42,961 bases of DNA from Parcubacteria group bacterium CG1_02_40_25. GTDB lineage: Bacteria; Patescibacteriota; Minisyncoccia; Portnoybacterales; CG1-02-40-25. Made by a program: the position numbers and the translations under genes. Location: contig MNWF01000023.1 of NCBI GenBank assembly GCA_001872305.1, positions 1 to 42,961 on the forward strand. The letters are read 5' to 3'. Below are positions 847 through 36,493 of this stretch, piece by piece. How positions within the stretch are numbered: position 1 is the first letter of the stretch; each line of letters begins with the position of its first letter. Below the pieces are notes generated by a model. It was not told the DNA's origin, ran no database searches, and was given only the letters and a program-made list of their open reading frames with translations.

Positions 847-1719
847 ATGTTAGTTTTGTTATTTTTAATTTTTTTATTTGGTTTAATTATTGGCAGTTTT
901 CTTAACGTCGTTATTTTTCGTCTAGGCACTAAAAAATCTGCGCTTAAGGGGCGCTCCTTTTGTCCGCATTGCAAACATACTTTGGCTTGGTATGATTTAA
1001 TCCCGGTTTTAAGTTTTGTTTTTTTAAAAGGCCAGTGCCGTTATTGCGCCAAAAAAATCAGCTGGCAATATCCGTTGGTAGAAATAGCAACCGGATTGTT
1101 GTTTTTGCAAACTTTTGTCTTCGTTAATTTTGTTCGTCATGCTGAATTTATTTCAGCATCCAGTGTCGTGGATTTCGGCTCGGCGACCGAAATGACAACG
1201 CTGATTATTCAATGTGGCCTGTTGTTGGCTGTTGGCAGTTTGTTGATAATCATTTTCGTCTACGATTTAAAACATTATTTAATCCCTGATAAAATTATTT
1301 TTCCAGCCATAGCGATTGCGTTTCTATATCGGATTAGTCTACAGTCTACGGTCTACGGTCTACGGCCAAGCGTAGGTGCTAAGCTGTTAACGCTAACAAC
1401 ATTTTATCCGTTGTTCGCCGCTTTTGGCGCCGCCACCTTTTTTCTGCTATTAGTTTTGATCACCCGCGGTAAAGGTATGGGTATTGGCGATATCAAATTA
1501 GCGTTTTTAATGGGGCTCCTTTTATCTTGGCCGCAAATTACCACCGCCTTATTTATTGCTTTTTTATCTGGCGGCTTGATTGGTTTAGCGTTGATCTTGA
1601 CTCGTAAAAAGAAATTAAAAAGTATGGTGCCCTTTGGCCCTTTTCTGGCCAGTGGCACAATTATCGCGCTTTTTTGGGGAGAAAAAATCATAAACTGGTA
1701 TTGGAAAATACTACTTTAA
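847..1719 (+). CDS. pilD: Prepilin peptidase (A24 aspartic peptidase, PilD-like), carrying two repeat-derived in-frame inserts
   Basis: CPHC...CRYC zinc-type motif, WQYPLVE, GMGIGDIKL aspartyl motif, multiple TM helices. Inserts at 1136-1200 and 1337-1365. Confidence 0.85.
   Translation: MLVLLFLIFLFGLIIGSFLNVVIFRLGTKKSALKGRSFCPHCKHTLAWYDLIPVLSFVFLKGQCRYCAKKISWQYPLVEIATGLLFLQTFVFVNFVRHAEFISASSVVDFGSATEMTTLIIQCGLLLAVGSLLIIIFVYDLKHYLIPDKIIFPAIAIAFLYRISLQSTVYGLRPSVGAKLLTLTTFYPLFAAFGAATFFLLLVLITRGKGMGIGDIKLAFLMGLLLSWPQITTALFIAFLSGGLIGLALILTRKKKLKSMVPFGPFLASGTIIALFWGEKIINWYWKILL
1136..1200. repeat. TGTCAT-element fragment (alpha type) inside the pilD CDS
   Basis: cgtcatgctgaatttatttcagcatccagtg matches the 5' part of the elements at 34342 and 35255. 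Ends in gaaatgacaacg. Translated as RHAEFISASSVVDFGSATEMTT. Confidence 0.7.
1337..1365. repeat. Type B heptamer array (GTCTACA/GTCTACG x4) inside the pilD CDS
   Basis: gtctacagtctacggtctacggtctacgg, translated as LQSTVYGLR. Confidence 0.8.
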
Positions 1720-1726
1720 AATAATT

Positions 1727-1846
1727 TTGTCATTCCGGGTGTCGACCTGGAATCCACGGCATTCCGTCATTCTGAACGTAGTGAAGAATCTTTGGGTCTG
1801 TTATCTAAAACAACCGAGATTCTTCGGCCGCGGCCTCAGAATGACA
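1727..1846. repeat. Composite TGTCAT element (gamma plus delta modules)
   Basis: ttgtcattccgg..ggaatccacgg, then gtcattctgaacgtagtgaagaatc...gattcttc...cagaatgaca. Starts 8 nt after the pilD stop. Confidence 0.8.
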
Positions 1847-1853
1847 GCTATCA

Positions 1854-2378
1854 ATGGAAGTGCAAAATCAAAAAAAGAATGGTTTTACCATCTGGGAGCT
1901 TTTGGTCGTTATGGCGATTATCGGGATTGTCTCGGCCATTGTTTTAGCGCAAAATCAATATTTTAATTCGCGCCGCCAATTGCAAAGAGCGGTGCAAGAG
2001 TTATCAGTTAATATTCGTTGGGCCCAAGGCATGGCCCTGGAAACGCAATTAGCCGGAGGCGTTTTGCCTGCTGGCTATGGAATTTATGTTAAAGATGATA
2101 GCCATTATTTAATTTTTTATAACCTATCATCCGCGGTAAAGACCTATGTCGCGGCCACCAGTCAAACTTTGAAAGAATTTACTTTGCCTTCAGGCATTCC
2201 CCTGATCGGCGGAGTCGGCCAAAATGCTTTTTTTCTAAAACCCAATCCTGATTGTTATATTAACAACAATCCACCGAGCGGTTTCGAAGACAATCTCGAT
2301 ATTATTTTACGGGATAATAAAACAATGACCACGAAAACAATTCGGATTAACGATGGCTGTTTGGTCAAGATTCTATAA
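1854..2378 (+). CDS. Minor pilin / pseudopilin with prepilin-type N-terminus
   Basis: NGFTIWELLVVMAIIGIVSAIVL prepilin motif. Located in the pilin cluster. Confidence 0.7.
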   Translation: MEVQNQKKNGFTIWELLVVMAIIGIVSAIVLAQNQYFNSRRQLQRAVQELSVNIRWAQGMALETQLAGGVLPAGYGIYVKDDSHYLIFYNLSSAVKTYVAATSQTLKEFTLPSGIPLIGGVGQNAFFLKPNPDCYINNNPPSGFEDNLDIILRDNKTMTTKTIRINDGCLVKIL

Positions 2379-2401
2379 TTGCGATAATTATAATAATTAA
2401 C

Positions 2402-2516
2402 CTAATTATTCTAAGAAAACCCTAAGCCCCAATGATCAATTTCTAAATTAATTTTGATAAGTAATAAAATTTGGTCATTGGGATTTTGGTCATTGGTCAT
2501 CATTTAGAATAATTAG
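2402..2516. repeat. Short-period hairpin (7-nt units GGTCATT-like) between pseudopilin genes
   Basis: Outer 13-nt perfect inverted repeat ctaattattctaa (2402-2414) / ttagaataattag (2504-2516). Inner ccccaatgatcaa versus the ggtcatt gggattt tggtcat tggtcat array. Confidence 0.7.
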
Positions 2517-2533
2517 AAATTTTTCTTGGTTTT

Positions 2534-3163
2534 ATGATATTTAATATCAAAAAAAATGAAGGGTTTACTCTTTTAGAGGTTATTTTCGCGATCACGATTA
2601 TCGTAATTGCTGTGCTTGCTATTTTTGGTTTAGTTAATTTGGGGGTAAAAAATATTGGCGTGGCCAAGAATAAACTTATTGCCAGCGAATTAGCCCAAGA
2701 GGGCATAGAATTAGTGCGTTGGTGGCGAGAAGATGGCCATGTTGATAATTGGACCGACTGGTATGATCCTATTTGCATTAATGGAAATTACACCCCCGCA
2801 CAAGTTTGCGGTAACTTTCGTTTTGGCGTTAACCAGCCGACTAATCCAGTTGATATTGATATAATAACTAATGCTACTTGGGGTGGCGTGGGTGCGGCAA
2901 TGCCAAGAATTGGTACCGAAATTAATAGTATTAGCGATATCCCGAGCTTTTTTCAATTACGTTATAATGCTGTGAGCAAATTATATAATTACGATAATGG
3001 CACTTTTACTAACTTTTTTCGGATTATCAATATTTCATCTCCTTCTGTTGTCCCTGCTGATCTTGGGTATAAATTGGTAACTGTTCAAGTTATTTGGCAA
3101 GATCGGGCGGGTCTAAAATCAGTTCAAGTTTATGATAAATTATATAATTGGATGGCGCCGTAA
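2534..3163 (+). CDS. Minor pilin / pseudopilin with prepilin-type N-terminus
   Basis: EGFTLLEVIFAITIIVIAVLAIF prepilin motif. Confidence 0.7.
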   Translation: MIFNIKKNEGFTLLEVIFAITIIVIAVLAIFGLVNLGVKNIGVAKNKLIASELAQEGIELVRWWREDGHVDNWTDWYDPICINGNYTPAQVCGNFRFGVNQPTNPVDIDIITNATWGGVGAAMPRIGTEINSISDIPSFFQLRYNAVSKLYNYDNGTFTNFFRIINISSPSVVPADLGYKLVTVQVIWQDRAGLKSVQVYDKLYNWMAP

Positions 3164-3178
3164 TTAGGTGTTCGTGGA

Positions 3179-3275
3179 GTCGTCATGCTGAATACATGTT
3201 GCGGACAGTACCTTCGGTTTATTTCAACATCCACGTCGTTAATACTGGACCCTGAAATTAGTTCAGGATGACAAC
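3179..3275. repeat. TGTCAT element, alpha type (inverted orientation)
   Basis: The reverse complement aligns along its length with 34342-34447 (ttgtcat.ctgaa...tccagt...aaccgaaggtactg...catgtattcag.atgacg). Confidence 0.8.
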
Positions 3276-3298
3276 GAGAGACAATAATTTTTTTACCA

Positions 3299-3850
3299 AT
3301 GACGTTTAATAACAAAAAACTTATTTGTAGGTCTACACTAACGGGTTTTACCTTAATAGAAATGCTTGTCGCTTTAGCGATTTTTTCTATTGTGGTAACG
3401 GTAATGCTGTCAGTAACGATTTCTTTGGTTAAAGCCCAACGCAAAACGCAAAATTTACAATTGGTCCATGATAGCGCACGCTACTCTATAGAAATGATGG
3501 CTAAAGAAATTAGAATGTCTAAAATTATTGATGTTAGAGTGGTAGGCGGCCCCCATTTTATATATGAATTAACGATTCAGCGTTTAGACGATCTGGGTAA
3601 TAATATTGTTTATCATTTTTATAATGATTCTGCGAGTAAACCAGGGATTTTAGCTCGCGACAGGGGCGCTGATACCCGTGATTTAAATGATATAACCAAA
3701 GTGGATATTAGAGGTTATTTTTATCCTTTAAGCGGCACCCCGGGCAAGCGATTAACAATTGTTTTAAGGGCAGAGTCAGTTGGCGCGCGTGCCGGTGAAG
3801 GAGCGATAATTGATTTGCAAACTACAGTTACCTCGCGTAGTTACGAATAA
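3299..3850 (+). CDS. Minor pilin / pseudopilin (PilW/GspJ-like architecture)
   Basis: TGFTLIEMLVALAIFSIVV prepilin motif followed by a globular domain. Confidence 0.7.
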   Translation: MTFNNKKLICRSTLTGFTLIEMLVALAIFSIVVTVMLSVTISLVKAQRKTQNLQLVHDSARYSIEMMAKEIRMSKIIDVRVVGGPHFIYELTIQRLDDLGNNIVYHFYNDSASKPGILARDRGADTRDLNDITKVDIRGYFYPLSGTPGKRLTIVLRAESVGARAGEGAIIDLQTTVTSRSYE

Positions 3851-3859
3851 TCAAAATAA

Positions 3860-3923
3860 TTGTCATTCCGGCCATTGAGCCGGAAGCCACGGTGTGGATG
3901 CCGAAATGAGTTCAGCACGACAG
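3860..3923. repeat. TGTCAT element, gamma type
   Basis: ttgtcattccggcc....gccggaagccacggtgtggatgccgaaatgagttcagc. A near copy lies at 4377-4460. Confidence 0.75.
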
Positions 3924-3941
3924 TAGCATCGTTCTATAATT

Positions 3942-4602: not shown

Positions 4603-6693
4603 ATGGTTAAGCAACAAGTCCAACAACGTATTTTGGTATTGCGAAAAGCGATTAATCACCATCGTTATCTTTATCATGTTTTAGACAAGCAGGAAATTGA
4701 TGATGCCGCTTTTGATTCTTTAAAGCACGAACTTTGGCAATTGGAACAGCAATTTCCTGATTTAACGACGCTGGATTCACCTACTCAAAGAGTTGGTGGC
4801 GAACCATTAGATAAATTTATTAAAGTTCAACACCAAACGCCGATGTTTTCTTTAGAAGATGTTTTTTCTTTTGAAGAATTGGTTGACTGGGAAAAGCGGA
4901 TTAAAAAAATGGTGCTACCCCCTAATCGGTCCCTCCCCCTCGTGAAGGGGGCGGGTTGGGGAGGGGGACAGTTAGATTATTTCGTGGAATTAAAAATAGA
5001 TGGTTTTGCGGTTGCCTTGATTTATGAAAAAGGAATTTTACAAACAGGTGCCACCAGAGGCAATGGTAAAGTTGGTGAAGATGTAACCCAAAATTTAAAA
5101 ACCATTGAATCAATTCCCTTGCAATTACGTCGTCCGTCAGAAAAAGAATTAGTAGGCGCGGGGTTGTCGCAAGTCATATCCTTAGCAAAAATTTTTAATA
5201 GCCGTTTTGAAGTGCGTGGTGAAGTGGTAATGATTAAAAAAATTTTTGAACAAATTAATGCTAAGCGCCGTCAAAAAAATCAAGCGCTTTATGCTAATCC
5301 GCGAAATACCGCGGCTGGCTCCATTAGGCAGTTAAATCCTAAAATTGCCGCGTCGCGTCATTTGGAGTTTTTGTCTTATGATATTGTTTCTGGCGTTGGT
5401 CAAGAATTACATAGCCAGGAGCATTTATTATTACCATTTTTAGGGTTCAAAGTTGATAAACATTTTGAAAAATGTTCGGATTTAGAAAACGCGCGTCTAT
5501 TTCATCAAAAAATTAATAAAATTCGTGATGGCTTGCCATATCAAATTGACGGTTTGGTAGTATCAGTTGATGATAATGAGATTTTTGTTAAATTGGGCGT
5601 AGCCGGTAAAGCGCCCCGAGGCGCCATTGCTTATAAATTTCCGGGCAAGCAAGCAACCACGATAGTAGAAAAAATTATTTTGAGCATCGGCCGTACTGGC
5701 GCGTTAACGCCAGTAGCGATTTTGAAATCAGTCAAAGTTGGTGGCACGATGATATCTCGGGCAACGCTTCATAATGTCGACGAGATTAAACGATTAGATG
5801 TGCGGTCCGGCGACACGGTGGTTATTCAACGCGCTGGAGACGTCATCCCAGATGTTGTCTCGGTGATTAAAGAATTAAGACCTAAAAATACTACGGAATT
5901 TAAGATGCCGGCGCGTTGCCCGGTTTGCAATTCGCCAGTTGTTCGCGCTAAAGGCGAAGTGATCTATCGTTGTGGCAATTTAAAATGTGGAGCGATTCTT
6001 AAAGAACAATTTTATCATTTTGTTTCGCGCCACGCCTTTGATATTGTTGGTTTGGGCCCAAAGATTATTGATCAATTAATGGATAGTGGTTTAATTATTG
6101 ATGTAGCTGATATTTTTAAATTAACCGAGGGCGATTTAGTGTCCTTAGAACGTTTCGCCGCCAAATCAGCTAAAAATTTAGTTTTAGCTATTAATCGTAG
6201 CAAGCAGATTGCCTTGAGCCGGTTCATTTATGCTCTGGGCATTCGCCATGTGGGTGAAGAAACGGCCACGGATTTAGCTGTTCGATTTGGTTCTTTGTCT
6301 GCCTTACAACGTACCACGCTTGATAATTTGCGGTTAGTTCGTGATATTGGCGAAGTTGTGGCTAAAAGTATCGTTGACTATTTTAGCAATAAGCGTAATT
6401 TAAATTTAATTGATAAATTATTAGCCGCGGGAGTTAAGATTAAAAGTGAGCCCAAAAAAATCGGTCAGAGATTAGCCGATCAGTCATTTGTGTTTACTGG
6501 TGAATTAGTTAAAATGTCGCGGGACCAGGCCAAAAATAAAGTTCGCGCTTTAGGTGGCGATATTTCAGAATCAGTTAGCCGGCAAGCTGATTTTGTGGTA
6601 GCGGGGCTAAATCCGGGGACCAAATATCAGAAGGCTAAAAAACTTGGCGTAAAAATAATTGACGAAAAGGAATTTTTAAACATGATTTTCTAA
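4603..6693 (+). CDS. ligA: NAD-dependent DNA ligase LigA with a repeat-derived insert just upstream of the KxDG motif
   Basis: ELKIDG adenylation motif, ATRGNG, four-Cys zinc finger CPVCNS...CGNLKC, HhH region, C-terminal BRCT (FVFTGEL). Confidence 0.95.
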   Translation: MVKQQVQQRILVLRKAINHHRYLYHVLDKQEIDDAAFDSLKHELWQLEQQFPDLTTLDSPTQRVGGEPLDKFIKVQHQTPMFSLEDVFSFEELVDWEKRIKKMVLPPNRSLPLVKGAGWGGGQLDYFVELKIDGFAVALIYEKGILQTGATRGNGKVGEDVTQNLKTIESIPLQLRRPSEKELVGAGLSQVISLAKIFNSRFEVRGEVVMIKKIFEQINAKRRQKNQALYANPRNTAAGSIRQLNPKIAASRHLEFLSYDIVSGVGQELHSQEHLLLPFLGFKVDKHFEKCSDLENARLFHQKINKIRDGLPYQIDGLVVSVDDNEIFVKLGVAGKAPRGAIAYKFPGKQATTIVEKIILSIGRTGALTPVAILKSVKVGGTMISRATLHNVDEIKRLDVRSGDTVVIQRAGDVIPDVVSVIKELRPKNTTEFKMPARCPVCNSPVVRAKGEVIYRCGNLKCGAILKEQFYHFVSRHAFDIVGLGPKIIDQLMDSGLIIDVADIFKLTEGDLVSLERFAAKSAKNLVLAINRSKQIALSRFIYALGIRHVGEETATDLAVRFGSLSALQRTTLDNLRLVRDIGEVVAKSIVDYFSNKRNLNLIDKLLAAGVKIKSEPKKIGQRLADQSFVFTGELVKMSRDQAKNKVRALGGDISESVSRQADFVVAGLNPGTKYQKAKKLGVKIIDEKEFLNMIF
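4918..4970. repeat. G/C-rich nested palindrome inside the ligA CDS
   Basis: tccctccccctcgtgaagggggcgggttggggaggggga, with ccccc/ggggg and ccctcccc/ggggaggg pairings. Translated as PPNRSLPLVKGAGWGGGQ. Confidence 0.75.
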
Positions 6694-15211: not shown

Positions 15212-15274
15212 GCGTCTACGGTCTACGGCTTACGGCTTACGATGGCCGTTAGCGGTAGACCGTAGACCGTAGAC
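15212..15274. repeat. Short-period hairpin type B after gyrB
   Basis: Left arm gtctacg gtctacg gcttacg gcttacg. Right arm cggtaga ccgtaga ccgtagac. Confidence 0.9.
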
Positions 15275-15290
15275 TAATTACAGTTTCCCC

Positions 15291-17097: not shown

Positions 17098-17102
17098 TAT
17101 GG

Positions 17103-17200
17103 TTGTCATTGCGAGGAGCTCCGAGGATGACGAGGAGCGACGTGGCAATCTCGCGGGAGGAAGCCAGCAGGCTGATGACCCGCGTGGGAGTTGCGTGGTT
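17103..17200. repeat. TGTCAT element, beta type (gtcattgcgagg...cgtggcaatctcg)
   Basis: ttgtcattgcgaggagc...gagcgacgtggcaatctcgcgggagg... Starts 6 nt after the rplK stop. Related copies at 21588, 32402, 32741 and 36512. Confidence 0.75.
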
Positions 17201-20760: not shown

Positions 20761-21842
20761 AAATCTTTAACTAATTTTTCTACTTCGGCATATTTTGTAA
20801 CCCAATGAATGCGCGGGTCGCGCTTGAACCAAGTCATTTGCCGCTTGGCATATTGCTTGGTGTGCTGTTTAATGAGTTTGATGGCCTGTTCTAAAGAAAT
20901 TTTATTCTGTAGGTACTGGATAATTTCTTGATAGCCAATACCGGAAAAGGCCGGCAATTTTAGTGTGGTTTTGTTGCTATTGTTATCCCCGCAAATGCGG
21001 GGATCCATTGTTGAGATTGTCGATTTTAGACGTGGATTCCCATACCTCACGGGGTATCTTCGACTTTCGTGGGAATGACAATCAAGATATTGTTTTTTTA
21101 ATATTTTTACCTCTTCAATCAATCCCTGTTTAATCATATCATTAACCCGTGAATCAATTTTTCGTTCTAATTCTTTTTTCGGCACGCTAATGCCTATTTG
21201 CAGGGTATTAAATAGCGGTTTGTCCTTTTGGCGCAGTTGTGAAAACGGCAGGTCAGTTTTTAGGCAAACTTCTAAAGCGCGAATTAGGCGACGCCGATTT
21301 TTAGCGTCAATTTTTTTAGCGCAAATTGGATCTAATTTTTTGAGACGACTAAATAATTGTTCGTTAGTTTGCAATTCTAATTTTGTTCTAATTTTTACAT
21401 CAGGCGGCACTTCGGGAATAATTAAATTATCAACTATGGCTTGGATATAAAGTCCAGTGCCGCCGACTAAAAATGGAATTTGTGGCTGGCGAGATTTAAT
21501 TATTCGCTTGACTTTTGCCTGATATTGTGCTACGTTATAGTCGTCATTTGGATTGACAATATCAATCATAAAGTGGGGAATGTGAATGTCATCGCGAGGA
21601 GGAAGCCGTAGCGAAGCGGAGGCTGACGACGTGGCAATCTCTTGATCGACTTTGCGCTCAAGATTGTTTTGTTGGAGGGGCAGATTTTTCGCTGTTCCGA
21701 TATCCATTTGGCGGTAAATTTGTCGTGAATCAGCGGAAATTATGTATCCGCTGACTTTTTTGGCTAAACGTAAACCCCAACTACTTTTTCCTGAAGCGGT
21801 TGGTCCGAGAATCACAATAATTTTTGGTAAATTTTTTTGCAT
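20748..21842 (-). CDS. miaA: tRNA dimethylallyltransferase with two repeat-derived in-frame inserts
   Basis: GPTASGKS P-loop, IISADSRQIYRQMDIGTAK, GGTGLYI, RRLIRALE. 364 aa, versus about 300-315 aa as I recall for typical MiaA. Confidence 0.9.
   Translation of the reverse strand: MQKNLPKIIVILGPTASGKSSWGLRLAKKVSGYIISADSRQIYRQMDIGTAKNLPLQQNNLERKVDQEIATSSASASLRLPPRDDIHIPHFMIDIVNPNDDYNVAQYQAKVKRIIKSRQPQIPFLVGGTGLYIQAIVDNLIIPEVPPDVKIRTKLELQTNEQLFSRLKKLDPICAKKIDAKNRRRLIRALEVCLKTDLPFSQLRQKDKPLFNTLQIGISVPKKELERKIDSRVNDMIKQGLIEEVKILKKQYLDCHSHESRRYPVRYGNPRLKSTISTMDPRICGDNNSNKTTLKLPAFSGIGYQEIIQYLQNKISLEQAIKLIKQHTKQYAKRQMTWFKRDPRIHWVTKYAEVEKLVKDFLEK
20984..21083. repeat. Composite palindromic element inside the miaA CDS
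   Basis: atccccgcaaatgcggggat palindrome, then ggattcccatacctcacggggtatcttcgactttcgtgggaatgacaatc. On the gene strand it is translated as DCHSHESRRYPVRYGNPRLKSTISTMDPRICGDNN. Confidence 0.75.
21588..21641. repeat. Beta-type TGTCAT element inside the miaA CDS (antisense to the gene)
   Basis: gtcatcgcgaggaggaagccgtagcgaagcggaggctgacgacgtggcaatctc. Read on the minus strand as EIATSSASASLRLPPRDD. Confidence 0.8.
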
Positions 21843-22255: not shown

Positions 22256-23341
22256 AATTTGTTCTCGCCGTTTTTTCTCAGCCATGGGAATATTATCAGC
22301 CAGGCGGCTGGCAATGGTGCCTTGACGTGGCGAATATTTACTAATGTAGGCCTTAAAAAAGCCTACTTTTTTTACAACGTCAATAGTTTCTTGAAATTGT
22401 GTTTCAGTTTCGCCCGGGAAGCCGACAATAATATCTGTAGTAATTTTAACACTAGGAATAATTAATTTAATATTTTTGACTAAATCTAAATAGTGTTGTT
22501 TGGTATAATGGCGGTTCATGGCTTTTAAAATAGTGTTATCGCCTGATTGGAAAGGCAGATGAATTTCTTTAATGACTTTATCGCATTGGGCAATTGTTCG
22601 GATTAATTTGTCTGACATGTCTTTGGGGTGATTAGTCAGGAAGCGAATTTTAAAATTACCAGGGATTTTGTTGATAATTTTTAGTAGGTCAGCAAAATCT
22701 ATTTGTGTAATATGGTTATTGGGTTCACGGGTTAACGAGTTAACGAGTTGCGGGTTATTTGCTCCTTGGCTTCCGAAGTATGAATTCACGTTTTGTCCCA
22801 ATAGCGCAATCTCTTGGTGCCTTGCGGCTACTAATGTTTTAATCTCATTGATGATTTCTCGCGCTGGTCGGCAACGCTCGCGCCCCTTGGTCAACGGCAC
22901 GGCGCAGTAAGAGCACCAGTTATTACAGCCGCGCATAATGGGGACGTAGTAAGCACTGTCATTCTGAACTCGTTTCAGGATCTGCGTGGCGCGTTTAGTG
23001 GATCCCGAAACAAGTTCGGGATGACTACTGGCAGGGTTTATCGGTAGTTGTTCAATTCGTCTAATTTTGACGCCAAGATTAGTAAATTTATTTTTGTCTT
23101 TTTGTAAAATACAACCAATCAAAATTATCCGCGCCTTTTTATCCGCGGATTTTATTTTTTTAACTTTAGCATACAAGCGATCCACCGCGCTTTGGCGCAC
23201 CGAACAAGCATTAAAAAATAACAAATCAGCCTCGCTAACATCGCGAGCTTGGCTCCAACCGCGGCTATCTAAATATTGTCCTAAGCGTTCGCTGTCTGAT
23301 TCATTCATCTGACAGCCGAAAGTAATAATTTGGTATTTCAT
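22238..23341 (-). CDS. Radical-SAM methylthiotransferase (MiaB/RimO family), no TRAM domain, two repeat-derived inserts
   Basis: MKYQIITFGCQMNESDSE N-terminal MTTase domain and the CNNWCSYC radical-SAM cluster. I use the ATG at 23341; the ORF-track start at 23419 adds 26 non-conserved residues. Confidence 0.85.
   Translation of the reverse strand: MKYQIITFGCQMNESDSERLGQYLDSRGWSQARDVSEADLLFFNACSVRQSAVDRLYAKVKKIKSADKKARIILIGCILQKDKNKFTNLGVKIRRIEQLPINPASSHPELVSGSTKRATQILKRVQNDSAYYVPIMRGCNNWCSYCAVPLTKGRERCRPAREIINEIKTLVAARHQEIALLGQNVNSYFGSQGANNPQLVNSLTREPNNHITQIDFADLLKIINKIPGNFKIRFLTNHPKDMSDKLIRTIAQCDKVIKEIHLPFQSGDNTILKAMNRHYTKQHYLDLVKNIKLIIPSVKITTDIIVGFPGETETQFQETIDVVKKVGFFKAYISKYSPRQGTIASRLADNIPMAEKKRREQILRQII
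22714..22759. repeat. Type A unit array (one arm only) inside the MTTase CDS
   Basis: ggttattgggttcacgggttaacgagttaacgagttgcgggttatt. Gene-strand translation is NNPQLVNSLTREPNN. Confidence 0.8.
22957..23024. repeat. TGTCAT-type palindromic element inside the MTTase CDS
   Basis: gtcattctgaactcgtttcaggatc...ggatcccgaaacaagttcgggatgac. It lies on the N-terminal side of the CNNWCSYC cluster motif. Confidence 0.75.
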
Positions 23342-23791: not shown

Positions 23792-25585
23792 TTATCGGAA
23801 ATTAATTAATTCCATTTTAACGCGTTCTAAAAACTTTTCCAGCGATATCGTACCCAAATCACCTTGTTCGCGGTGACGTACTGCAACGGTTTTTGATGCG
23901 ACTTCTTTGTCGCCAACCACTAAAACATAAGGGATTTTTTGTAATTGGGCTTCGCGGATTTTTTTGCCAATGGTTTCGTTGGCGTCAATTAGCTTAACTC
24001 GGAGCGTTGATGGACAAGTGTCTGCCATAAGATCTTGGGTAACTTGGCGAGCGTATTCAAGGTGTTTTTCGCCAATTGGCGCTACCCAAATTTGTTCTGG
24101 GGCTAACCATAGGGGCAAGGCGCCAGCGTAGTGTTCTAATAAAATCCCCATAAAACGCTCAAAAGAGCCCATAATTGTGCGATGGATTAACACAGGCGTT
24201 TTTTCTTTGCCGTCTTTATCCGAGTATTTACAGTCGAATTTTAAAGGCATTTGGAAATCAAGCTGGATAGTAGCACATTGCCAAGTGCGGCTTAAAGAAT
24301 CTTTCAACTGATAATCAATTTTTGGGCCGTAAAATGCGCCATCTTTTTCTTTAAGACCCCATTTATCTTGACCATAAACGTCATTAAGGATTTTTTTAAG
24401 GGCTACTTCGGCTTTGTTCCACGATGCAATATCGCCCATAAAATCATCGGGTCTAGTAGAAAGGTAGGGCATATATGATAGACCAAATGGTTGATAAATT
24501 TCATCAACTAATTTAATTACTTGTTTAATTTCATTTTCTATTTGGCTTTCGGTAATGAAAATGTGGGCATCGTCTTGTTTAAACTGTTGGACGCGAAATA
24601 AGCCGCCCAGCTGTCCTGATTTTTCTTTACGAGTGATTAGTCCTGGTTCGGCATAGCGCAAGGGCAAGTTGCGATATGACTTTGGCGAGTCGTTGTAAAT
24701 AATAATCGCGCCCGGGCAATCCATGGGGCGTAAGGCATATTGTTTTTCGTTTTTGTCAGTCGTAGTAAAATACATATCGTCTTTGTAGTGGTCCCAGTGG
24801 CCTGATTTTTTCCAGATTGCGGTGTCTAACATTGACGGCGCGATTACGAAATCGTAGTTGAATTTTTTTTGAGTGTTACGCCAAAATTCATAGAGTAAAT
24901 TATAGACAATCGTGCCTTTGGGGTGGAAAAAGGGCATACCAGGAGCTTGTTCGTGAAAACTAAAAAGATCAAGTTGTGTGCCGATTTTTCGGTGATCTCG
25001 TTTTTCTGCCTCCTCTAAATTATGTAAATAATCAGTCAGTTCCCTTTCGCTGTCAAAAGCCACGCCATAAATGCGAGTGAGCATTTGATTTTTTTCATCG
25101 CCGCGCCAATAAGCGCCAGATAATTTGGTAAGCTTGAACGCCTTAGGATCAATTTCTTTGGTGGAGTTAATATGCGGTCCAGCGCACAAGTCAGTAAAAT
25201 CGCCGTTTTGATAAATCGTGACAGTATCATCCGACAATCCTTTGATTAGTTCTATTTTATATTGTTGATTTTTAAATAGCGTCAGTGCCTCTTTTTTAGA
25301 AATTTCTTTTTTCGTAAACTCTAGATTTTGTTTGATTAACTGGCGCATTTTTTTTTCAATTTTAAGCAGGTCTTCTTCGGATATGCTTTGGGTTTTGAGT
25401 TGTGGCTTTGGGCTTTGAGCTTTGAGCTTTGAGCTTTTGCTAAAATCAAAATCATAATAAAATCCATTTTCAATGGCCGGGCCTATACCGAATTTAACAT
25501 CGGGATAAAATTGGCCAACAGCAAAAGCCATTATATGGCTTAGTGAATGACGAATTGTTTCAATTTTGACTTGACTATTTGGCAT
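23792..25585 (-). CDS. thrS: Threonine-tRNA ligase (no N-terminal TGS domain) with a 7-mer-repeat insert
   Basis: RHSLSHIMA editing-domain His motif, GFYYDFD, class II motifs (FRVQQFKQDDAHIF, IHRTIMGSFERF), C-terminal anticodon-binding domain. Confidence 0.95.
   Translation of the reverse strand: MPNSQVKIETIRHSLSHIMAFAVGQFYPDVKFGIGPAIENGFYYDFDFSKSSKLKAQSPKPQLKTQSISEEDLLKIEKKMRQLIKQNLEFTKKEISKKEALTLFKNQQYKIELIKGLSDDTVTIYQNGDFTDLCAGPHINSTKEIDPKAFKLTKLSGAYWRGDEKNQMLTRIYGVAFDSERELTDYLHNLEEAEKRDHRKIGTQLDLFSFHEQAPGMPFFHPKGTIVYNLLYEFWRNTQKKFNYDFVIAPSMLDTAIWKKSGHWDHYKDDMYFTTTDKNEKQYALRPMDCPGAIIIYNDSPKSYRNLPLRYAEPGLITRKEKSGQLGGLFRVQQFKQDDAHIFITESQIENEIKQVIKLVDEIYQPFGLSYMPYLSTRPDDFMGDIASWNKAEVALKKILNDVYGQDKWGLKEKDGAFYGPKIDYQLKDSLSRTWQCATIQLDFQMPLKFDCKYSDKDGKEKTPVLIHRTIMGSFERFMGILLEHYAGALPLWLAPEQIWVAPIGEKHLEYARQVTQDLMADTCPSTLRVKLIDANETIGKKIREAQLQKIPYVLVVGDKEVASKTVAVRHREQGDLGTISLEKFLERVKMELINFR
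25386..25437. repeat. 7-mer tandem array (CTTTGAG-like, about 7 units) inside the thrS CDS
   Basis: ctttggg ttttgag ttgtggc tttgggc tttgagc tttgagc tttgagc. Gene-strand translation is SKLKAQSPKPQLKTQ. Confidence 0.8.
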
Positions 25586-32262: not shown

Positions 32263-33063
32263 ATGCAAAAGCCGAGTTTACGATATGAGAAAAATTTATG
32301 GCGCAAGGGATGTCGTTTTGTGGCAGGCATTGATGAAGTTGGCCGTGGGCCTTTGGCCGGGCCTGTTGTGGCCGCCGCGGTAGTGATAAAATATAATAAA
32401 ATTGTCATTGCGAGGAGCGAGGCAGTGGCCGAGCGACGTGGCAATCTCGCGGGAGGAGGCCGTCGTAGGCCGACGACCCGCGCGCGTGATTCTTTTCAAG
32501 ATTTAGCTGTTCGCGATTCTAAATTATTATCTTCGCGCCAGCGCGAAATTTTGTATCAAAAAATTATCATTCATCCGCAAATTGATTGGGGCATTGGCAT
32601 TGTTTCCGAAAAAATAATTGATGAGTTCAATATCTTAAAAGCAACAAAACTCGCGATGATGAAAGCAGTGGCGAATTTATCGCGCAGGCCTGATTGGTTG
32701 TTGATTGATGGTAATTTTTTGTTGCCGTTAGTCGGGGGGTGTCATTGCGAAGATCCCGCACCTTGTACTAAAAGTGCGGGGGACGTGGCAACCTCGAATC
32801 ATAAGTTGCGGCGCGCCTCAATGCCTCAGCGGTCAATCATTGCTGGCGACAAAAAAGTTTTTTCTATCGCCTGTGCCTCTATCATTGCGAAAGTAACGCG
32901 AGATAAAATAATGACTGATTTGCATAAAATTTATCCTCAATATGGTTTTAATCAGCACAAGGGCTATGGCACAAAATTACATTTTGCTAAATTAGCTCAA
33001 TGTGGCGCTTCGCCTATTCATCGTCGATCTTTTCATCCGGTATCGGAATTTGTTTTTCCGTAG
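32263..33063 (+). CDS. rnhB: Ribonuclease HII with two repeat-derived in-frame inserts
   Basis: GIDEVGRGPLAGPVV, DSKLLS, LLIDGN, GDKKVFSIACASIIAKV, GYGT. I use the ATG at 32263; the ORF-track alternative start is 32245. Confidence 0.9.
   Translation: MQKPSLRYEKNLWRKGCRFVAGIDEVGRGPLAGPVVAAAVVIKYNKIVIARSEAVAERRGNLAGGGRRRPTTRARDSFQDLAVRDSKLLSSRQREILYQKIIIHPQIDWGIGIVSEKIIDEFNILKATKLAMMKAVANLSRRPDWLLIDGNFLLPLVGGCHCEDPAPCTKSAGDVATSNHKLRRASMPQRSIIAGDKKVFSIACASIIAKVTRDKIMTDLHKIYPQYGFNQHKGYGTKLHFAKLAQCGASPIHRRSFHPVSEFVFP
32402..32490. repeat. Beta-type TGTCAT element inside the rnhB CDS (sense orientation)
   Basis: ttgtcattgcgaggagcgaggcagtggccgagcgacgtggcaatctcgcgggaggaggccgtcgtaggccgacgacccgcgcg. 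Near copy of 17103-17190. Translated as VIARSEAVAERRGNLAGGGRRRPTTRAR. Confidence 0.85.
32741..32800. repeat. Beta-like TGTCAT element inside the rnhB CDS
   Basis: gtcattgcgaagatcccgcaccttgtactaaaagtgcgggggacgtggcaacctcgaatc. 60 nt, translated as CHCEDPAPCTKSAGDVATSN. Confidence 0.75.
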
Positions 33064-34341: not shown

Positions 34342-34447
34342 TTGTCATGCTGAATTTATTTCAGCATCCAGTGTATAAAACATAGCTCGTCTACTGGATC
34401 CTGAAATGAACCGAAGGTACTGCTCGCGGCATGTATTCAGGATGACG
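34342..34447. repeat. TGTCAT element, alpha type (reference copy)
   Basis: ttgtcatgctgaatttatttcagcatccagtg...ctggatcctgaaatgaaccgaaggtactgctcgcggcatgtattcaggatgacg. Confidence 0.85.
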
Positions 34448-34488
34448 AAAAAGTTACTTGGGGAGTATTGATAGTTGAGGAGGGATTG

Positions 34489-35212: not shown

Positions 35213-35223
35213 AAGCTGGAATC

Positions 35224-35232
35224 TGGTATAAT
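35224..35232 (+). promoter_or_regulatory. Extended -10 element (TGgTATAAT)
   Basis: tggtataat at 35224-35232. The repeat element 35255-35379 would then lie in the 5' UTR of the 35435 gene. Confidence 0.4.
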
Positions 35233-35254
35233 AATGTGGGATGATTAAATGTAG

Positions 35255-35379
35255 TTGTCATACTGAATTAGTTTCAGCATCTACGGCGAGATCCTCGGGT
35301 CAAGCCCGAGGATGACAAATACGAACTGGATCCTGAAATAAACCGAAGGTACTGCCCGTGGCATGTATTCAGGATGACG
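35255..35379. repeat. Alpha-type TGTCAT element carrying a nested short palindrome
   Basis: Collinear with 34342-34447, except that gatcctcgggtcaagcccgaggatgacaa (35289-35318) replaces the centre. Confidence 0.85.
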
Positions 35380-35434
35380 TTGTATTTTTGATGGTTTGAC
35401 TGCGCTCACCACTTTTAGTTTTTGATTTAATCTT

Positions 35435-35797
35435 ATGCCTAAAATTGATTCCACAAAATTTGGCGAAATTGTGATTGCCGGCAAAAAATACGGCCAGGTT
35501 TTAATTATTGGCGACAAAATTGTCGAACGTGATTACGATAAACTGAAAAAACTTTTTGGCACCGCGCACAAAATCGCTGATTGGGAAATTGAACAATTGC
35601 TGTCAAACAATCCCGAAGCCATCGTCATCGGCACTGGCCAAGATGGTTTGTTGGAAGTTGATGAAGAATTTAAGCGACAAATGGCTGGCCGAGGCATTGA
35701 GTTAATTGTTGGCAAAACTTTTGAAGCGCTTGAGGTTTATAACGAAAAAATTAAAGCCGGCCAGCGAGCCAATGCTTTAATGCATACGACGTGTTAA
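35435..35797 (+). CDS. Mth938-like domain protein (DUF498 type)
   Basis: Size and pattern: FGEIVIAGKKY...IIG, PEAIVIGTGQDGLL, GIELIV..T.EA...YN, ALMHTTC. Confidence 0.6.
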   Translation: MPKIDSTKFGEIVIAGKKYGQVLIIGDKIVERDYDKLKKLFGTAHKIADWEIEQLLSNNPEAIVIGTGQDGLLEVDEEFKRQMAGRGIELIVGKTFEALEVYNEKIKAGQRANALMHTTC

Positions 35798-35806
35798 AAT
35801 AAAAGT

Positions 35807-36493
35807 ATGCAAGCATATCAATTAATTCGTTCACGTCGTCGGACCATTGCCTTGGAAATCAGCCGTGAGGGCTGTCTAATTGTGCGTGCGCCAATGCGTG
35901 CTAGTCGATTTTATCTTGATGATTTAATTAAACGTAAGCAAGCGTGGATTAATCAGCATTTAAATAAAATTATTCAGCGACAACAATTCTTGCCAGCGAA
36001 ACAATTTGTTTCTGGTGAGGGTTTTTTGTATTTAGGCCAAACTTATCCTTTGAGATTAATTCAGCATTTAGTAGGGAACAAAAATTTTTGTTCCCTACAA
36101 TTCACGGGCAATAAATTTTTGTTAGTTGAATCAGCCCGCGCCAGTGCCCGCGGCATTTGGCAACGTTGGTATAAAACGCAGGCGCAAAAAATTATCAGTC
36201 AACGAGTTCGCGACTTGGCAAAGCAGTTTGATTTTCAATATGCTAAAATTAAAATTACTCAAGCTAAAAAACGCTGGGGATCGTGCAGTCCAAAAGGTAA
36301 TCTCAACTTTTCTTGGCGATTAATAATGGCACCATTAGACGTGATTGACTATGTGGTGGTGCACGAACTGGCGCATTTAAAAATAAAAAATCATCAGCGA
36401 GTATTTTGGCAAAGTGTGGAGCAAATTTTGCCAGATTATCGTTCGTGCCGCGTCTGGCTCAAACAAAACGAGCATCTTTTAGACGGGTTTTAA
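35807..36493 (+). CDS. YgjP-like (DUF45 / M48-related) zinc metallopeptidase
   Basis: KKRWGSCSPKGNLNFSWRLIMAPLDVIDYVVVHELAHL (HExxH). Contains the 28-bp palindrome at 36071-36098 in frame. Confidence 0.8.
   Translation: MQAYQLIRSRRRTIALEISREGCLIVRAPMRASRFYLDDLIKRKQAWINQHLNKIIQRQQFLPAKQFVSGEGFLYLGQTYPLRLIQHLVGNKNFCSLQFTGNKFLLVESARASARGIWQRWYKTQAQKIISQRVRDLAKQFDFQYAKIKITQAKKRWGSCSPKGNLNFSWRLIMAPLDVIDYVVVHELAHLKIKNHQRVFWQSVEQILPDYRSCRVWLKQNEHLLDGF
36071..36098. repeat. 28-bp perfect palindrome inside the ygjP-like CDS
   Basis: gtagggaacaaaaatttttgttccctac, identical to 38793-38820. Translated as VGNKNFCSL. Confidence 0.9.

What the first reader, a model, noticed from the sequence alone, without database searches (positions are those of the whole stretch)
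1136..36098. Palindromic repeat elements sit in frame inside at least eight conserved genes (12 insertions)
The same repeat families that fill the intergenic spacers also occur inside coding sequences without breaking the frame. The hosts are pilD (2), ligA (1), gatB (1), miaA (2), the MiaB-like MTTase (2), thrS (1), rnhB (2) and the ygjP-like peptidase (1). In each case the flanking protein sequence carries the expected family motifs, while the inserted peptide is low-complexity and reads as a literal translation of the repeat. Examples are SLQSTAH-SLQSTDN-SLQSTVG in GatB and VIARSEAVAERRGNLAGG in RNase HII. The beta element is tolerated in both orientations: sense in rnhB and antisense in miaA. 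The only precedent I know is the Rickettsia palindromic elements (selfish DNA inserted into protein-coding genes). Here the density is 12 insertions in 43 kb, several element architectures are involved, and the hosts include essential translation and replication enzymes. Whether the inserts are translated, removed from the RNA, or have been co-opted is open.
Basis: partly seen in the sequence, partly recalled or inferred. Interest (0 to 1): 0.85.

Follow-up and report, generated by a model that had tools for sequence, protein, structure and literature searches.

The report
Hairpin repeats translated inside housekeeping genes
In this tiny groundwater bacterium (Candidatus Portnoybacteria), short hairpin-forming repeats that crowd the gaps between genes have also landed inside eight housekeeping genes without breaking the reading frame, which is the same thing long known from Rickettsia but in a very different branch of bacteria.

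Summary
Eleven of the 12 segments are extra sequence that orthologues lack. The twelfth (ygjP) is a repeat copy that adds only about 5 residues. Ten of the 12 match repeat families found in the window's spacers. The ligA hairpin and the thrS heptamer tract have no spacer copy here. Only about half fold as clear palindromes.

Two close relatives (synonymous divergence about 0.48) carry different elements, remnants or nothing at the same loops, so turnover is fast and recurrent. The host cores are under purifying selection (pN/pS 0.15). AlphaFold keeps the RNase HII and MiaA folds, with the inserts at low confidence. Spacer copies have no more open frames than chance, while every intragenic copy is open in the host frame. 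This argues for translation plus a selective filter, not RNA excision.

The GTCAT-hairpin modules belong to a cosmopolitan family. One sits in frame in a Sphingopyxis ileS. The ATGAC motif also marks Rickettsia RPE-4/6/7.

Verdict: a real, RPE-like phenomenon and a new member of a known kind. I found no description of it in the candidate phyla radiation (CPR). How the elements move is unknown.

The parts
1132..1200 (+). pilD insert 1. A complete small double-hairpin element, GTCAT-hp-ATCCAGTG..GTGGAT-hp-ATGAC, translated as VRHAEFISASSVVDFGSATEMTT.
   Evidence: 31/31 nt identical to spacer copy 34344-34374. Lies in the variable loop between the A24_N and Peptidase_A24 domains; relA and relB carry other elements there and the shortest orthologues carry none. 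Fold z -2.4.
1336..1389 (+). pilD insert 2. (GTCTACG)4 heptamer array with a short return arm, translated as SLQSTVYGLRPSVGAKLL.
   Evidence: TRF finds period 7 x 4.1 copies. Belongs to families D5/D6 together with spacer arrays at 15216, 15584 and 16239. About 7 aa longer than in relA and relB. Not palindromic on its own (z 0.19).
4915..4968 (+). ligA insert. A GC-rich hairpin CCCTCCCCC-loop-GGGGGCGGG..GGGGAGGGGG, translated as (P)NRSLPLVKGAGWGGG.
   Evidence: 15 aa absent from the 56%-identical L008 LigA. MFE -33.6 kcal/mol, z -1.7. No second copy in the window. The same kind of hairpin sits in frame in relA rnhB, relA/relB miaA and relA thrS.
19238..19345 (+). gatB insert. A heptamer-built palindrome, (CTACAGT)n ... 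(CGTAGAC)n, translated as SLQSTAHSLQSTDNSLQSTVGRRLSIVDRRLLTVDR.
   Evidence: About 29 aa absent from 6 orthologues. relA and relB have other short repeats at the same place. MFE -44.1, z -4.4. Only 1 of 6 frames is open, and it is the frame in use.
21578..21683 (-). miaA insert 1. The beta left module reads on the + strand (TGTCATCGCGAGGAGG...GACGTGGCAATCTC) and so is antisense to the gene. Peptide ...EIATSSASASLRLPPRDD.
   Evidence: Aligns with the 4 other beta copies. Absent from 6 orthologues. relA and relB carry a GC-rich PPSPPSPC..GEG hairpin at the same site. AF2 pLDDT <50 over residues 55-85.
20958..21083 (-). miaA insert 2. Double-hairpin element GTCATTCCCA..TGGGAATCCACG ... ATGGATCCCCGC-ATTT-GCGGGGATAAC. 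Peptide DCHSHESRRYPVRYGNPRLKSTISTMDPRICGDNN.
   Evidence: About 38 aa absent from distant orthologues. Shared but partly deleted or diverged in relA and relB. z -2.5. pLDDT <50 over residues 257-292.
22955..23041 (-). MTTase insert 1. Double-hairpin element GTCATCCCGAA-CTTG-TTTCGGGATCCACT...AGATCCTGAA-ACGAG-TTCAGAATGAC. Peptide SSHPELVSGSTKRATQILKRVQNDS.
   Evidence: Lies in the linker between the UPF0004 and radical-SAM domains. relA keeps only CGTCATTCC; relB keeps the centre and the CAGAATGAC end. MFE -32, z -6.2.
22706..22765 (-). MTTase insert 2. One arm of the octamer family (AACTCGTT/AACCCGTG). Peptide GANNPQLVNSLTREPNNHIT.
   Evidence: Families D2/D3/D20 with spacers at 760-844, 7085-7165 and 13152-13221. 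11-18 aa absent from L016, L013 and L009. Shared with relA, replaced in relB. Not palindromic.
25385..25441 (-). thrS insert. A heptamer tract (AGCTCAA/AGCCCAA)n on the gene strand. Peptide KSSKLKAQSPKPQLKTQS.
   Evidence: TRF period 7 x 7.7 copies. 16 aa absent from 8 orthologues, including the 62-63%-identical L007 and L008. relA has a different, longer insert. A one-unit (-7 nt) allele in 5 ENA assemblies splits the gene.
32392..32490 (+). rnhB insert 1. Beta element in sense orientation (TTGTCATTGCGAGGAGC..GACGTGGCAATCTCGCGGGAGG..CCCGCG). Peptide IVIARSEAVAERRGNLAGGGRRRPTTRARD.
   Evidence: 79% identical over 92 nt to spacer copy 17095-17184. Absent from the PDB RNase HII chains. relA has a GC-rich hairpin here and relB has almost nothing. 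pLDDT <50.
32731..32820 (+). rnhB insert 2. Beta-like module in sense orientation (TGTCATTGCGAAGA-hairpin-GACGTGGCAACCTCG). Peptide GGCHCEDPAPCTKSAGDVATSNHKLRRAS.
   Evidence: Shares the beta core. The site is empty in relA and filled by a different GTCAT double hairpin in relB. pLDDT <50 over residues 157-185.
36060..36098 (+). ygjP segment. A perfect 28-nt palindrome GTAGGGAACAAAAATTTTTGTTCCCTAC plus TTCAGCAT. Peptide (IQH)LVGNKNFCSL.
   Evidence: 28/28 nt identical to 38793-38820. Net gain is only about 5 aa relative to 16 homologues. Identical in the relA orthologue although synonymous divergence in the rest of the gene is 0.45. z -6.1.
34342..34448 (.). Reference spacer copy of the double-hairpin (A-type) element, ends TTGTCAT...ATGAC.
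   Evidence: The exo/CDP-OH-transferase spacer is 143 nt here and 24 nt in relA and relB, a filled versus empty site. No target-site duplication is visible.
36509..36625 (.). Reference spacer copy of the full beta element: GTCATTGCG..GTGGCAATCTC..GAGGTTGCCAC..CACAATGAC.
   Evidence: An orthologous copy is present in relA. It shows that the intragenic beta copies are left halves of a double-module palindrome.
17100..17190 (.). Spacer beta copy, closest to rnhB insert 1.
15212..15276 (.). Reference spacer heptamer palindrome (GTCTACG)n..(CGTAGAC)n after gyrB.
   Evidence: No frame is open.
760..844 (.). Reference spacer octamer palindrome (AACGAGTT)n(AACTCGTT)n before pilD.
   Evidence: No frame is open. 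One octamer fewer in strain L095.

Best explanation
Several families of short hairpin-forming repeats have multiplied in this Portnoybacteria lineage:
- GTCAT-hairpin modules, single or paired into TTGTCAT...ATGACAA double hairpins; the 'beta' type is one of these.
- Palindromes built from 7- or 8-nt tandem units.
- GC-rich hairpins.

Most copies sit in the short spacers, but copies also arise inside genes. In single-copy housekeeping genes, only copies that keep the frame, carry no stop codon in that frame and fall in a surface loop or domain linker can survive. The surviving copies are transcribed and translated as floppy, nearly neutral loop extensions.

The same few permissive loops are hit again and again. 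Inserts are then eroded by deletion, so close relatives differ at these sites.

Shown:
- The inserts derive from repeats.
- They are absent from orthologues.
- There is turnover at the same sites in close relatives.
- The host genes are under purifying selection.
- The frame filter operates.
- The predicted host folds are intact.

Inferred:
- The inserts are translated.
- The inserted peptides are near-neutral.
- The way the copies are made is unknown. The lack of target-site duplications and the hairpin ends would suit a single-strand (Y1/RAYT-like) transposase acting in trans. The 7- and 8-nt arrays also change by unit slippage.
For: - **Orthologue gaps:**
- **Nucleotide identity to spacer copies:**
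- **Three genomes with different elements, remnants or empty sites at the same loops:**
  - rnhB site 1: beta / GC hairpin / none.
  - rnhB site 3: beta / empty / A-type.
  - miaA site 1: beta / GC hairpin / GC hairpin.
  - gatB: heptamer palindrome / other short repeats.
  - MTT site 1: full / remnant / partial.
- **Spacer filled versus empty site:**
- **Selection on hosts:** core pN/pS 0.14-0.20 at pS about 0.48.
- **Open frames:** spacer copies have 33 of 138 frames open against 31 +/- 4.6 expected. Every intragenic copy is open in the host frame, and for gatB, pilD-1 and pilD-2 that is the only open frame. In gatB the GTAG units are spaced 21 and 14 nt apart, so TAG never falls in frame, whereas spacer arrays spaced 7+7 close every frame (sequence).
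- **Structure:** AF2 gives MiaA mean pLDDT 80.8 with the inserts <50, and RNase HII core blocks mostly 75-91 with the inserts <50. Foldseek target-normalised TM-scores are 0.80-0.82 (MiaA) and 0.75-0.86 (RNase HII).
- **No known intron or ribozyme:** Rfam finds only tRNAs.
- **Independent assemblies:**
- **Unit-length (7 or 8 nt) copy-number differences between assemblies:**
- **Same architecture in frame in Sphingopyxis ileS:**
Against: - There are no transcript or peptide data, so translation of the inserts is inferred only.
- No transposase in the window is linked to these elements. The RAYT-like gene in relA is flanked by a different hairpin (GTTCCGAAC) that is absent from the window.
- The ygjP palindrome is conserved far beyond the neutral expectation (pS 0.06 against 0.45). 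This fits a functional DNA/RNA site or gene conversion better than a decaying neutral insert.
- The thrS tract occurs as a frame-breaking allele in five assemblies, so frame preservation is not absolute, or those assemblies are wrong.
- The ligA and thrS segments have no spacer copy in the window.
Confidence: 0.8

Rival explanations
1. The segments are made locally and are not mobile. Tandem 7- and 8-nt units expand by replication slippage. Palindromes arise by template switching. Copies are homogenised by gene conversion with spacer copies. On this view no transposition is involved.
For: - Unit-length differences between near-identical assemblies: -7 nt in thrS, +7 nt at 16229, and one octamer fewer near 811-820.
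- The heptamer and octamer arrays have no fixed ends.
- The thrS tract has a unit sequence of its own with no spacer copy.
- The ygjP palindrome is identical to a spacer copy and to the relA orthologue, as gene conversion would give.
- No target-site duplications were seen.
Against: - The GTCAT double hairpins have defined ends (TTGTCAT...ATGACAA) and appear as whole units at filled versus empty sites.
- pilD-1 is 31/31 identical to a copy 33 kb away.
- The same module families occur in distant phyla and in viral contigs. Local slippage cannot explain that.
Confidence: 0.3
2. The inserts are removed before the protein works, either from the mRNA (a small unrecognised intron-like element) or from the protein (intein-like). 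On this view they never disturb the enzymes.
For: Strong hairpins could in principle be processing signals (z down to -6.2). CPR bacteria are known for introns in rRNA genes (my own knowledge). The frame-broken thrS allele in five assemblies would be harmless if the tract were removed.
Against: - Rfam gives no match.
- The segments are 39-126 nt, too short for an intein, and no Hint or other domain was hit.
- All 12 keep the frame and lack stops although the families have no intrinsic excess of open frames. Removal would not require that.
- The elements are of unrelated sequence and occur in both orientations. A single excision signal cannot account for that.
Confidence: 0.05
3. The inserted loops have been co-opted. 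They add a function to the host enzymes, such as a binding surface, regulation or a hairpin in the mRNA, and are kept by selection.
For: - The ygjP palindrome is conserved well beyond the neutral expectation.
- In miaA-2 the second hairpin keeps its stem while its loop changes between the window and relA.
- The same loops carry inserts in many Parcubacteria.
Against: - Relatives at pS about 0.48 have different elements, remnants or nothing at the same sites.
- Aligned insert codons give pN/pS 0.76 against 0.15 in the cores, although many of these codons are not homologous.
- The inserted peptides are low-complexity and are modelled as disordered.
Confidence: 0.1
4. The segments are assembly chimeras, or the host genes are pseudogenes.
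For: Repeats are classic places for misassembly. The thrS tract differs between the MEGAHIT assemblies and the JGI/NCBI assemblies.
Against: The identical RNase HII is present in 6 assemblies from ENA, NCBI and JGI. In the 10 loci fetched around the MiaA orthologue, the gatB, miaA and MTT inserts carry no indels. The ORFs are intact, the family motifs are present and core pN/pS is 0.15.
Confidence: 0.02

Closest known systems
Rickettsia palindromic elements (RPE; Ogata et al. 2000, 2002, as reviewed in PMC10969869; RPE-4/-6/-7 analysis in PMC3767692)
   Same: - Several families of palindromic repeats are present both in spacers and in frame inside unrelated housekeeping genes, including tRNA-modification enzymes, aaRS and replication genes.
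- The inserts are compatible with the host fold.
- Orthologues carry different element groups, or none, at the same loci (PMC3767692 reports this for RPE-4/6/7).
- The ATGAC motif is enriched: here 9.0 per kb in the inserts and 5.5 per kb in spacers against 1.7 per kb in other coding sequence.
   Different: - The host phylum is different (a free-living or episymbiotic groundwater CPR bacterium, not an intracellular alphaproteobacterium).
- The elements are shorter (39-126 nt against 100-150 bp).
- The insert peptides match no NCBIfam model, including any RPE domain model the library holds.
- Palindromes built from 7- and 8-nt tandem units also occur inside genes.
- Turnover is visibly faster between close relatives.
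Cosmopolitan GTCAT-hairpin repeats, including Neisseria dRS3/NIME-type ATTCCC-N8-GGGAAT repeats (the name comes from my own knowledge)
   Same: - The module has the form GTC-[AT-stem-loop-stem-AT]-CC.
- The relA-type module matches at least 40 places per Neisseria gonorrhoeae record and many places in Azospirillum, Legionella and sphingomonad replicons.
- The beta-type module matches Methylosinus, Methylocystis, Novosphingobium, Nostocales and Legionella plasmids, and 98 of 134 viral-contig matches carry its 3' partner.
- A complete double hairpin lies in frame in the annotated ileS of Sphingopyxis indica pMC4, translated as RHPRESGDPERASANPTLDSRFRGNDKD.
   Different: - In those genomes the copies listed are almost all unannotated spacer DNA.
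- The density inside genes is much higher here.
- The window's copies have stems of their own (ATGCTGAA, ATCCTGAA, ATTCCGG).
- The strict module is 20-50 times denser here than in the other fetched loci.
REP/BIME elements mobilised by RAYT Y1 transposases (PMC2817692)
   Same: - These are short imperfect palindromes in many copies, often in inverted pairs, without target-site duplications.
- RAYT-like genes are common in CPR, and one lies in relA flanked by inverted hairpins.
- The ygjP palindrome and every CGTAGAC unit carry the GTAG head.
   Different: - The A-type and beta modules have a GTCAT head, not GT(A/G)G.
- No rayt gene flanked by these hairpins was found.
- REPs are extragenic by definition.
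Intragenic MITEs and small mobile sequences (ERIC/RU of enterobacteria, PMC2759123; QMITE1 and Anabaena MITEs, PMC10969869)
   Same: They are non-autonomous repeats with inverted ends that sometimes fuse in frame with host ORFs.
   Different: Those cases are sporadic and mostly lie at gene ends or in non-essential genes. Here 8 of about 47 genes in 43 kb are affected, internally. No target-site duplication and no parent IS element is evident.
Cyanobacterial STRR heptanucleotide tandem repeats (from my own knowledge)
   Same: They are tandem heptamers in spacers, and unit sequences such as CAACAGT resemble CTACAGT/CAACAGC here.
   Different: Here the arrays are arranged as two inverted arms forming long hairpins, and they also occur inside genes. 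The relationship was not tested.

Membership tests
Rickettsia palindromic elements (RPE) | Repeated palindromic element present in many copies in one genome | tested here: met
   33 self-similar segments in 43 kb. 32 GTCAT-hairpin modules under a loose motif against 3-14 in shuffles. Spacers hold 41 hairpin regions against about 9 expected. The elements are shorter than RPEs.
Rickettsia palindromic elements (RPE) | Copies inserted inside protein-coding genes without breaking the frame | tested here: met
   12 segments in 8 intact ORFs. 11 are true length gains relative to orthologues.
Rickettsia palindromic elements (RPE) | Insert lies where the host fold tolerates it (surface loop) | tested here: met
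   The AF2 models keep the MiaA and RNase HII folds (target-normalised TM-score 0.75-0.86) with the inserts at pLDDT <50. The other hosts were judged from alignments only.
Rickettsia palindromic elements (RPE) | Sequence homology to an RPE family consensus or peptide domain | tested here: not met
   Seven insert peptides scanned against NCBIfam at E <= 10 gave no hit at all. That the library holds RPE1-5 domain models is from my own knowledge. No DNA comparison with Rickettsia genomes was possible; one weak plasmid hit (E = 0.6) to a Rickettsia endosymbiont was seen.
Rickettsia palindromic elements (RPE) | ATGAC motif enrichment (RPE-4/-6/-7, PMC3767692) | tested here: met
   ATGAC/GTCAT occurs at 9.0 per kb in the inserts, 5.5 per kb in spacers and 1.7 per kb in other coding sequence, against 2.1 per kb expected.
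MITE | Terminal inverted repeats | tested here: met
   The A-type and beta double modules end in TTGTCAT...ATGACAA. The heptamer and octamer arrays have no defined termini.
MITE | Target-site duplication | tested here: not met
   No duplication was seen at the filled versus empty spacer site or at the borders of pilD-1, MTT-1 and miaA-2 (sequence).
MITE | Parent autonomous element with the same ends | not testable with these tools
   None is present in the window.
REP/BIME with RAYT | GT(A/G)G head followed by a 20-40 nt imperfect palindrome | tested here: inconclusive
   Not met by the A-type and beta modules (GTCAT head). Met by the ygjP/38793 palindrome GTAGGGAAC... and by the CGTAGAC heptamer units (PMC2817692).
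REP/BIME with RAYT | rayt gene flanked by two inverted copies of the same repeat | tested here: not met
   There is no Y1 transposase in the window. The RAYT-like gene of relA scores 56.5 bits against NF047646 (cut-off 80) and is flanked by GTTCCGAAC hairpins that are absent from the window. No close homologue could be tied to this genome.
Self-splicing intron or intein | Ribozyme core or Hint domain | tested here: not met
   Rfam at E <= 1 finds only three tRNAs and chance miRNA-like hits on long hairpins. The inserts encode 13-42 aa with no domain hit.

The most novel reading that the evidence does not exclude
The inserts may not land at random and then get filtered. Instead, particular protein loops in Parcubacteria housekeeping enzymes may act as reusable landing pads. 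On this view, cosmopolitan GTCAT-hairpin elements are drawn to remnants of earlier copies. Remnants of this kind are seen here: relA keeps CGTCATTCC at MTT site 1 and ATGAC at rnhB site 3. This would give a site-directed generator of loop diversity.

In addition, heptamer tracts could make an essential gene (thrS) switch between an intact form and a split form (80 aa + 518 aa, with overlapping stop and start), or depend on recoding.
Probability: 0.15. Interest if true: 0.75.

Novelty: new member of a known kind. Interest (0 to 1): 0.5.

Why it matters
It extends the 'selfish DNA inside protein-coding genes' phenomenon from Rickettsia to the candidate phyla radiation. There it looks common. About a fifth of the 120 closest RNase HII homologues, and about an eighth of the MiaA homologues, are 25 to more than 100 residues longer than the norm, and the long ones aligned carry the extra residues at the same loops.

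- **Annotation:** the 99%-identical MiaA of another assembly of this population is labelled 'hypothetical protein' in NCBI.
- **Protein-family and phylogenomic alignments of CPR genomes:** the insert columns are not homologous.
- **Protein evolution:** the three near-relatives give a natural series of filled, eroded and empty sites in enzymes of known structure.
- **Assembly and variant calling:** the heptamer tracts differ between assemblies.

Tried and rejected
- **Rfam scan of the whole window at E <= 1:** only tRNAs, so no known intron or RNA family explains the inserts.
- **NCBIfam scan of seven insert peptides at E <= 10:** no hit, including any RPE domain model the library holds.
- **Generic hairpin census (stem >= 9):** too permissive inside genes, 42 found against about 30 expected. 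I replaced it with a motif-based census.
- **Terminator and promoter scan of 1-20000:** 26 terminator-like sites against 22 expected, so I make no claim that the spacer palindromes are terminators.
- **RAYT lead:** the Y1 transposase next to miaA in relA is flanked by another hairpin family that is absent from the window. Its homologues could not be tied to this genome.
- **Full beta element against plasmids:** no match at E <= 0.01. Only short consensus modules gave hits.
- **Exact-protein look-ups of the intact 597-aa ThrRS:** nothing found, with either of two start codons. The intact form was found instead in L180 and L185 by way of the miaA neighbour.
- **pN/pS of the insert codons:** of limited value, because many aligned insert codons are not homologous.
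- **Strict pattern for the ligA GC-rich hairpin:** no other copy in the window, and only the relA rnhB copy among 174 loci.

Full report
**What the window is.** The 42,961-base window is 86% coding. It carries type IV pilus genes, ligA, gatCAB, pheST, gyrB, nusG, rplK, miaA, thrS, dnaE, guaA, rnhB, rnc and ribosomal protein genes. The RNase HII protein is named by NCBI as coming from Candidatus Portnoybacteria bacterium CG_4_10_14_0_2_um_filter_39_11, and its longest recorded contig is 42,961 bases. The organism is therefore a CPR/Patescibacteria bacterium.

**The repeats.** The spacers are packed with hairpin-forming repeats: 41 hairpin regions against about 9 expected. I sort them into three architectures.

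- **GTCAT-hairpin modules.** These have the form GTC-[AT-stem-loop-stem-AT]-CC(A). They occur singly or as inverted pairs that form a double hairpin with ends TTGTCAT...ATGACAA. Its full form is GTCATTGCG..GTGGCAATCTC..GAGGTTGCCAC..CACAATGAC.
- **Tandem-unit palindromes.** Their two arms are tandem arrays of 7-nt units (GTCTACN/NGTAGAC) or 8-nt units (AACGAGTT/AACTCGTT).
- **GC-rich hairpins.**

**Check of the 12 segments.** The host identities are confirmed.

Alignments with orthologues from other CPR genomes show extra residues in gatB (about 29), miaA (about 28 and about 38), thrS (16), ligA (15) and at two places in the MTTase. RNase HII has about 34 and about 30 extra residues relative to solved structures and to 17 homologues. 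The two pilD segments lie in loops that vary in all relatives. ygjP is the exception, gaining only about 5 residues.

At the DNA level:
- pilD-1 is 31/31 identical to a spacer copy 33 kb away.
- The ygjP palindrome is 28/28 identical to 38793-38820.
- rnhB-1 is 79% identical over 92 nt to 17095-17184.
- rnhB-2 and miaA-1 share the invariant beta core.
- gatB and pilD-2 belong to the heptamer family, and MTT-2 to the octamer family.
- MTT-1 and miaA-2 have the double-hairpin architecture.
- The ligA hairpin and the thrS tract have no spacer counterpart in the window.

Only five segments fold clearly better than shuffled sequence. Three do so weakly. Four are single arms or half elements that do not fold meaningfully.

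**Not an artefact, not pseudogenes.** The identical RNase HII occurs in six assemblies from three sources. The 99%-identical MiaA occurs on 13 contigs, and in the 10 loci fetched the gatB, miaA and MTT inserts carry no indels. Between the window and its relative relA, the host cores have pN/pS 0.14-0.20 at pS about 0.48.

**Close relatives give the key evidence.** Two related genomes were recovered from metagenomes:
- relA: L087, L091, L097.
- relB: L089, L093, L094, L096.

At the same loop positions the three genomes differ:

| Site | Window | relA | relB |
|---|---|---|---|
| rnhB site 1 | beta | GC-rich hairpin | almost nothing |
| rnhB site 3 | beta-like | empty | different double hairpin |
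| miaA site 1 | beta (antisense) | GC-rich hairpin | GC-rich hairpin |
| gatB | heptamer palindrome | other short repeats | other short repeats |
| MTT site 1 | complete element | CGTCATTCC only | centre and 3' end |
| miaA site 2 | element | same, partly deleted | diverged further |
| MTT site 2 | element | shared with window | replaced |

One spacer shows a clean filled versus empty site with no target-site duplication.

In the wider sets of RNase HII and MiaA homologues, many other Parcubacteria carry unrelated repeat-like peptides at the very same loops.

**Translated or removed?**
- Rfam finds nothing, and the segments are too short for inteins.
- Spacer copies of these families have open frames only at the chance rate (33 of 138 against 31 +/- 4.6). 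Many have none. Every intragenic copy is open in the host frame, and for gatB, pilD-1 and pilD-2 that is the only open frame of six.
- In gatB the GTAG-bearing units are spaced 21 and 14 nt apart, so TAG never falls in frame. Spacer arrays spaced 7+7 nt close all frames.
- This is the signature of selection for an uninterrupted ORF, which an excised element would not need.
- AlphaFold models keep the MiaA and RNase HII folds (target-normalised TM-score 0.75-0.86 to solved structures) and place the inserts at pLDDT <50.

I conclude, by inference, that the inserts are translated as disordered loops.

**Instability of the short-unit arrays.**
- Five MEGAHIT assemblies carry one AGCTCAA unit fewer in thrS. 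This splits the gene into an 80-aa ORF and a 518-aa ORF whose stop and start overlap.
- The window, a JGI assembly and an NCBI assembly have the intact 597-aa gene.
- The short allele occurs on at least two SNP backgrounds.
- Its perfect correlation with the assembler means I cannot tell real heterogeneity from artefact.
- A +7-nt difference in a spacer heptamer array and a one-octamer difference in a spacer octamer array were also seen.

**Comparison with what is known.** The phenomenon matches the Rickettsia palindromic elements. These are in-frame inserts in housekeeping genes that the fold tolerates, and for RPE-4/6/7 different element groups occur at the same loci in different species, with enrichment of ATGAC (PMC10969869, PMC3767692). 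ATGAC/GTCAT is enriched here too.

Membership of the RPE sequence families is not supported, since the insert peptides match no NCBIfam model.

The GTCAT-hairpin modules are cosmopolitan:
- The beta 15-mer occurs in more than 120 viral contigs, and 98 of 134 matches carry the 3' partner.
- Consensus modules match spacer DNA on replicons in the plasmid collection from Methylosinus, Novosphingobium, Nostocales, Legionella, Azospirillum and Neisseria.
- A complete double hairpin lies in frame in the annotated ileS of Sphingopyxis indica pMC4.

In this lineage the strict module is 20-50 times denser than in the other fetched loci.

The REP/RAYT system is a possible mechanistic analogue, having hairpins, no target duplication and a single-strand Y1 transposase (PMC2817692). 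However, no rayt gene flanked by these hairpins was found. Seven full-text searches, three of them aimed at CPR, found no paper describing such inserts in CPR.

**Verdict.** It is a new member of a known kind. It stands out for its density (8 of about 47 genes), the mix of architectures (including tandem-unit palindromes inside genes) and the clearly resolved turnover at recurrent loops. How the copies are made remains open.

Noticed in passing
window 25385-25441; L001, L175-L179 against L180, L185: The thrS heptamer tract has a one-unit (-7 nt) allele in five ENA MEGAHIT assemblies. It splits thrS into an 80-aa ORF and a 518-aa ORF with overlapping stop and start (ATGCGCCAGTTAA). The window and the JGI and NCBI assemblies have the intact gene. 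This could be phase-like variation, recoding or an assembler effect.
   Followed up: partly
window 23792-25585 against L091 1969-3900: ThrRS of the window and of relA are 76-90% identical over most of residues 1-200 and over 501-597 (57% in the block holding the insert), but only 28-60% identical in the catalytic core (residues 201-500). The core appears to have been swapped by recombination or transfer in one lineage.
   Followed up: partly
window 36071-36098 and 38793-38820; L087 5297-5324: The 28-nt perfect palindrome inside ygjP is identical in the relA orthologue, although synonymous divergence in the rest of the gene is 0.45 (pS 0.06 in the segment). It starts with GTAG like a REP. It may be a functional site, or it may be kept by gene conversion.
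   Followed up: partly
L091 5164-5745 (relA); window 21854-22255: relA has a RAYT-like Y1 transposase flanked by inverted GTTCCGAAC hairpins between the MTTase and miaA. The window has a response-regulator gene at that position. Homologues named RayT are common in CPR metagenomes.
   Followed up: partly
window 16289-16621, flanks 16228-16265 and 16636-16670: A 23S-rRNA-intervening-sequence-type four-helix-bundle gene sits between nusG and rplK, bracketed by heptamer palindromes. One assembly (L184) has +7 nt in the left array and a longer 151-aa gene call.
   Followed up: no
L089 2298-6593 (relB) against window 25924-29094: relB dnaE is 1431 aa and has an intein (Intein_splicing hit). The window's dnaE is 1056 aa and has none.
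   Followed up: no
window 605-647 and 703-744: A long inverted repeat (CCCCTCACCTTTTAAGGAG / CTCCTTAAAAGGTGAGGGG, arms about 55 nt apart) lies upstream of pilD. It gave chance-level miRNA-precursor hits in Rfam.
   Followed up: no
window 19745-19825 (gatB aa 366-392): A second extra segment of about 20 aa in GatB (AWLKTGIESIVLSGKDLRVEQDASSQ) is shared with relA and relB but missing from more distant orthologues. It is not repeat-like and may be an old, eroded insert.
   Followed up: no
window 20292-20376: A polymorphism of about 54 nt in the gatB-miaA spacer among otherwise >=98%-identical assemblies (L180, L186, L187).
   Followed up: no
window 20748-21842: NCBI labels the 99%-identical MiaA of another assembly of this population 'hypothetical protein COS76_00760'. 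The inserts appear to defeat automatic naming.
   Followed up: no
L308 (Sphingopyxis indica pMC4, NZ_CP076395.1 about 32499-32580): An annotated plasmid-borne ileS carries a complete GTCAT double hairpin in frame (peptide RHPRESGDPERASANPTLDSRFRGNDKD). This shows the same phenomenon in an alphaproteobacterium outside Rickettsia.
   Followed up: partly
window 33117-33684: A BrnT/BrnA-like toxin-antitoxin pair lies between rnhB and the exonuclease gene. It is conserved in relA and relB.
   Followed up: no
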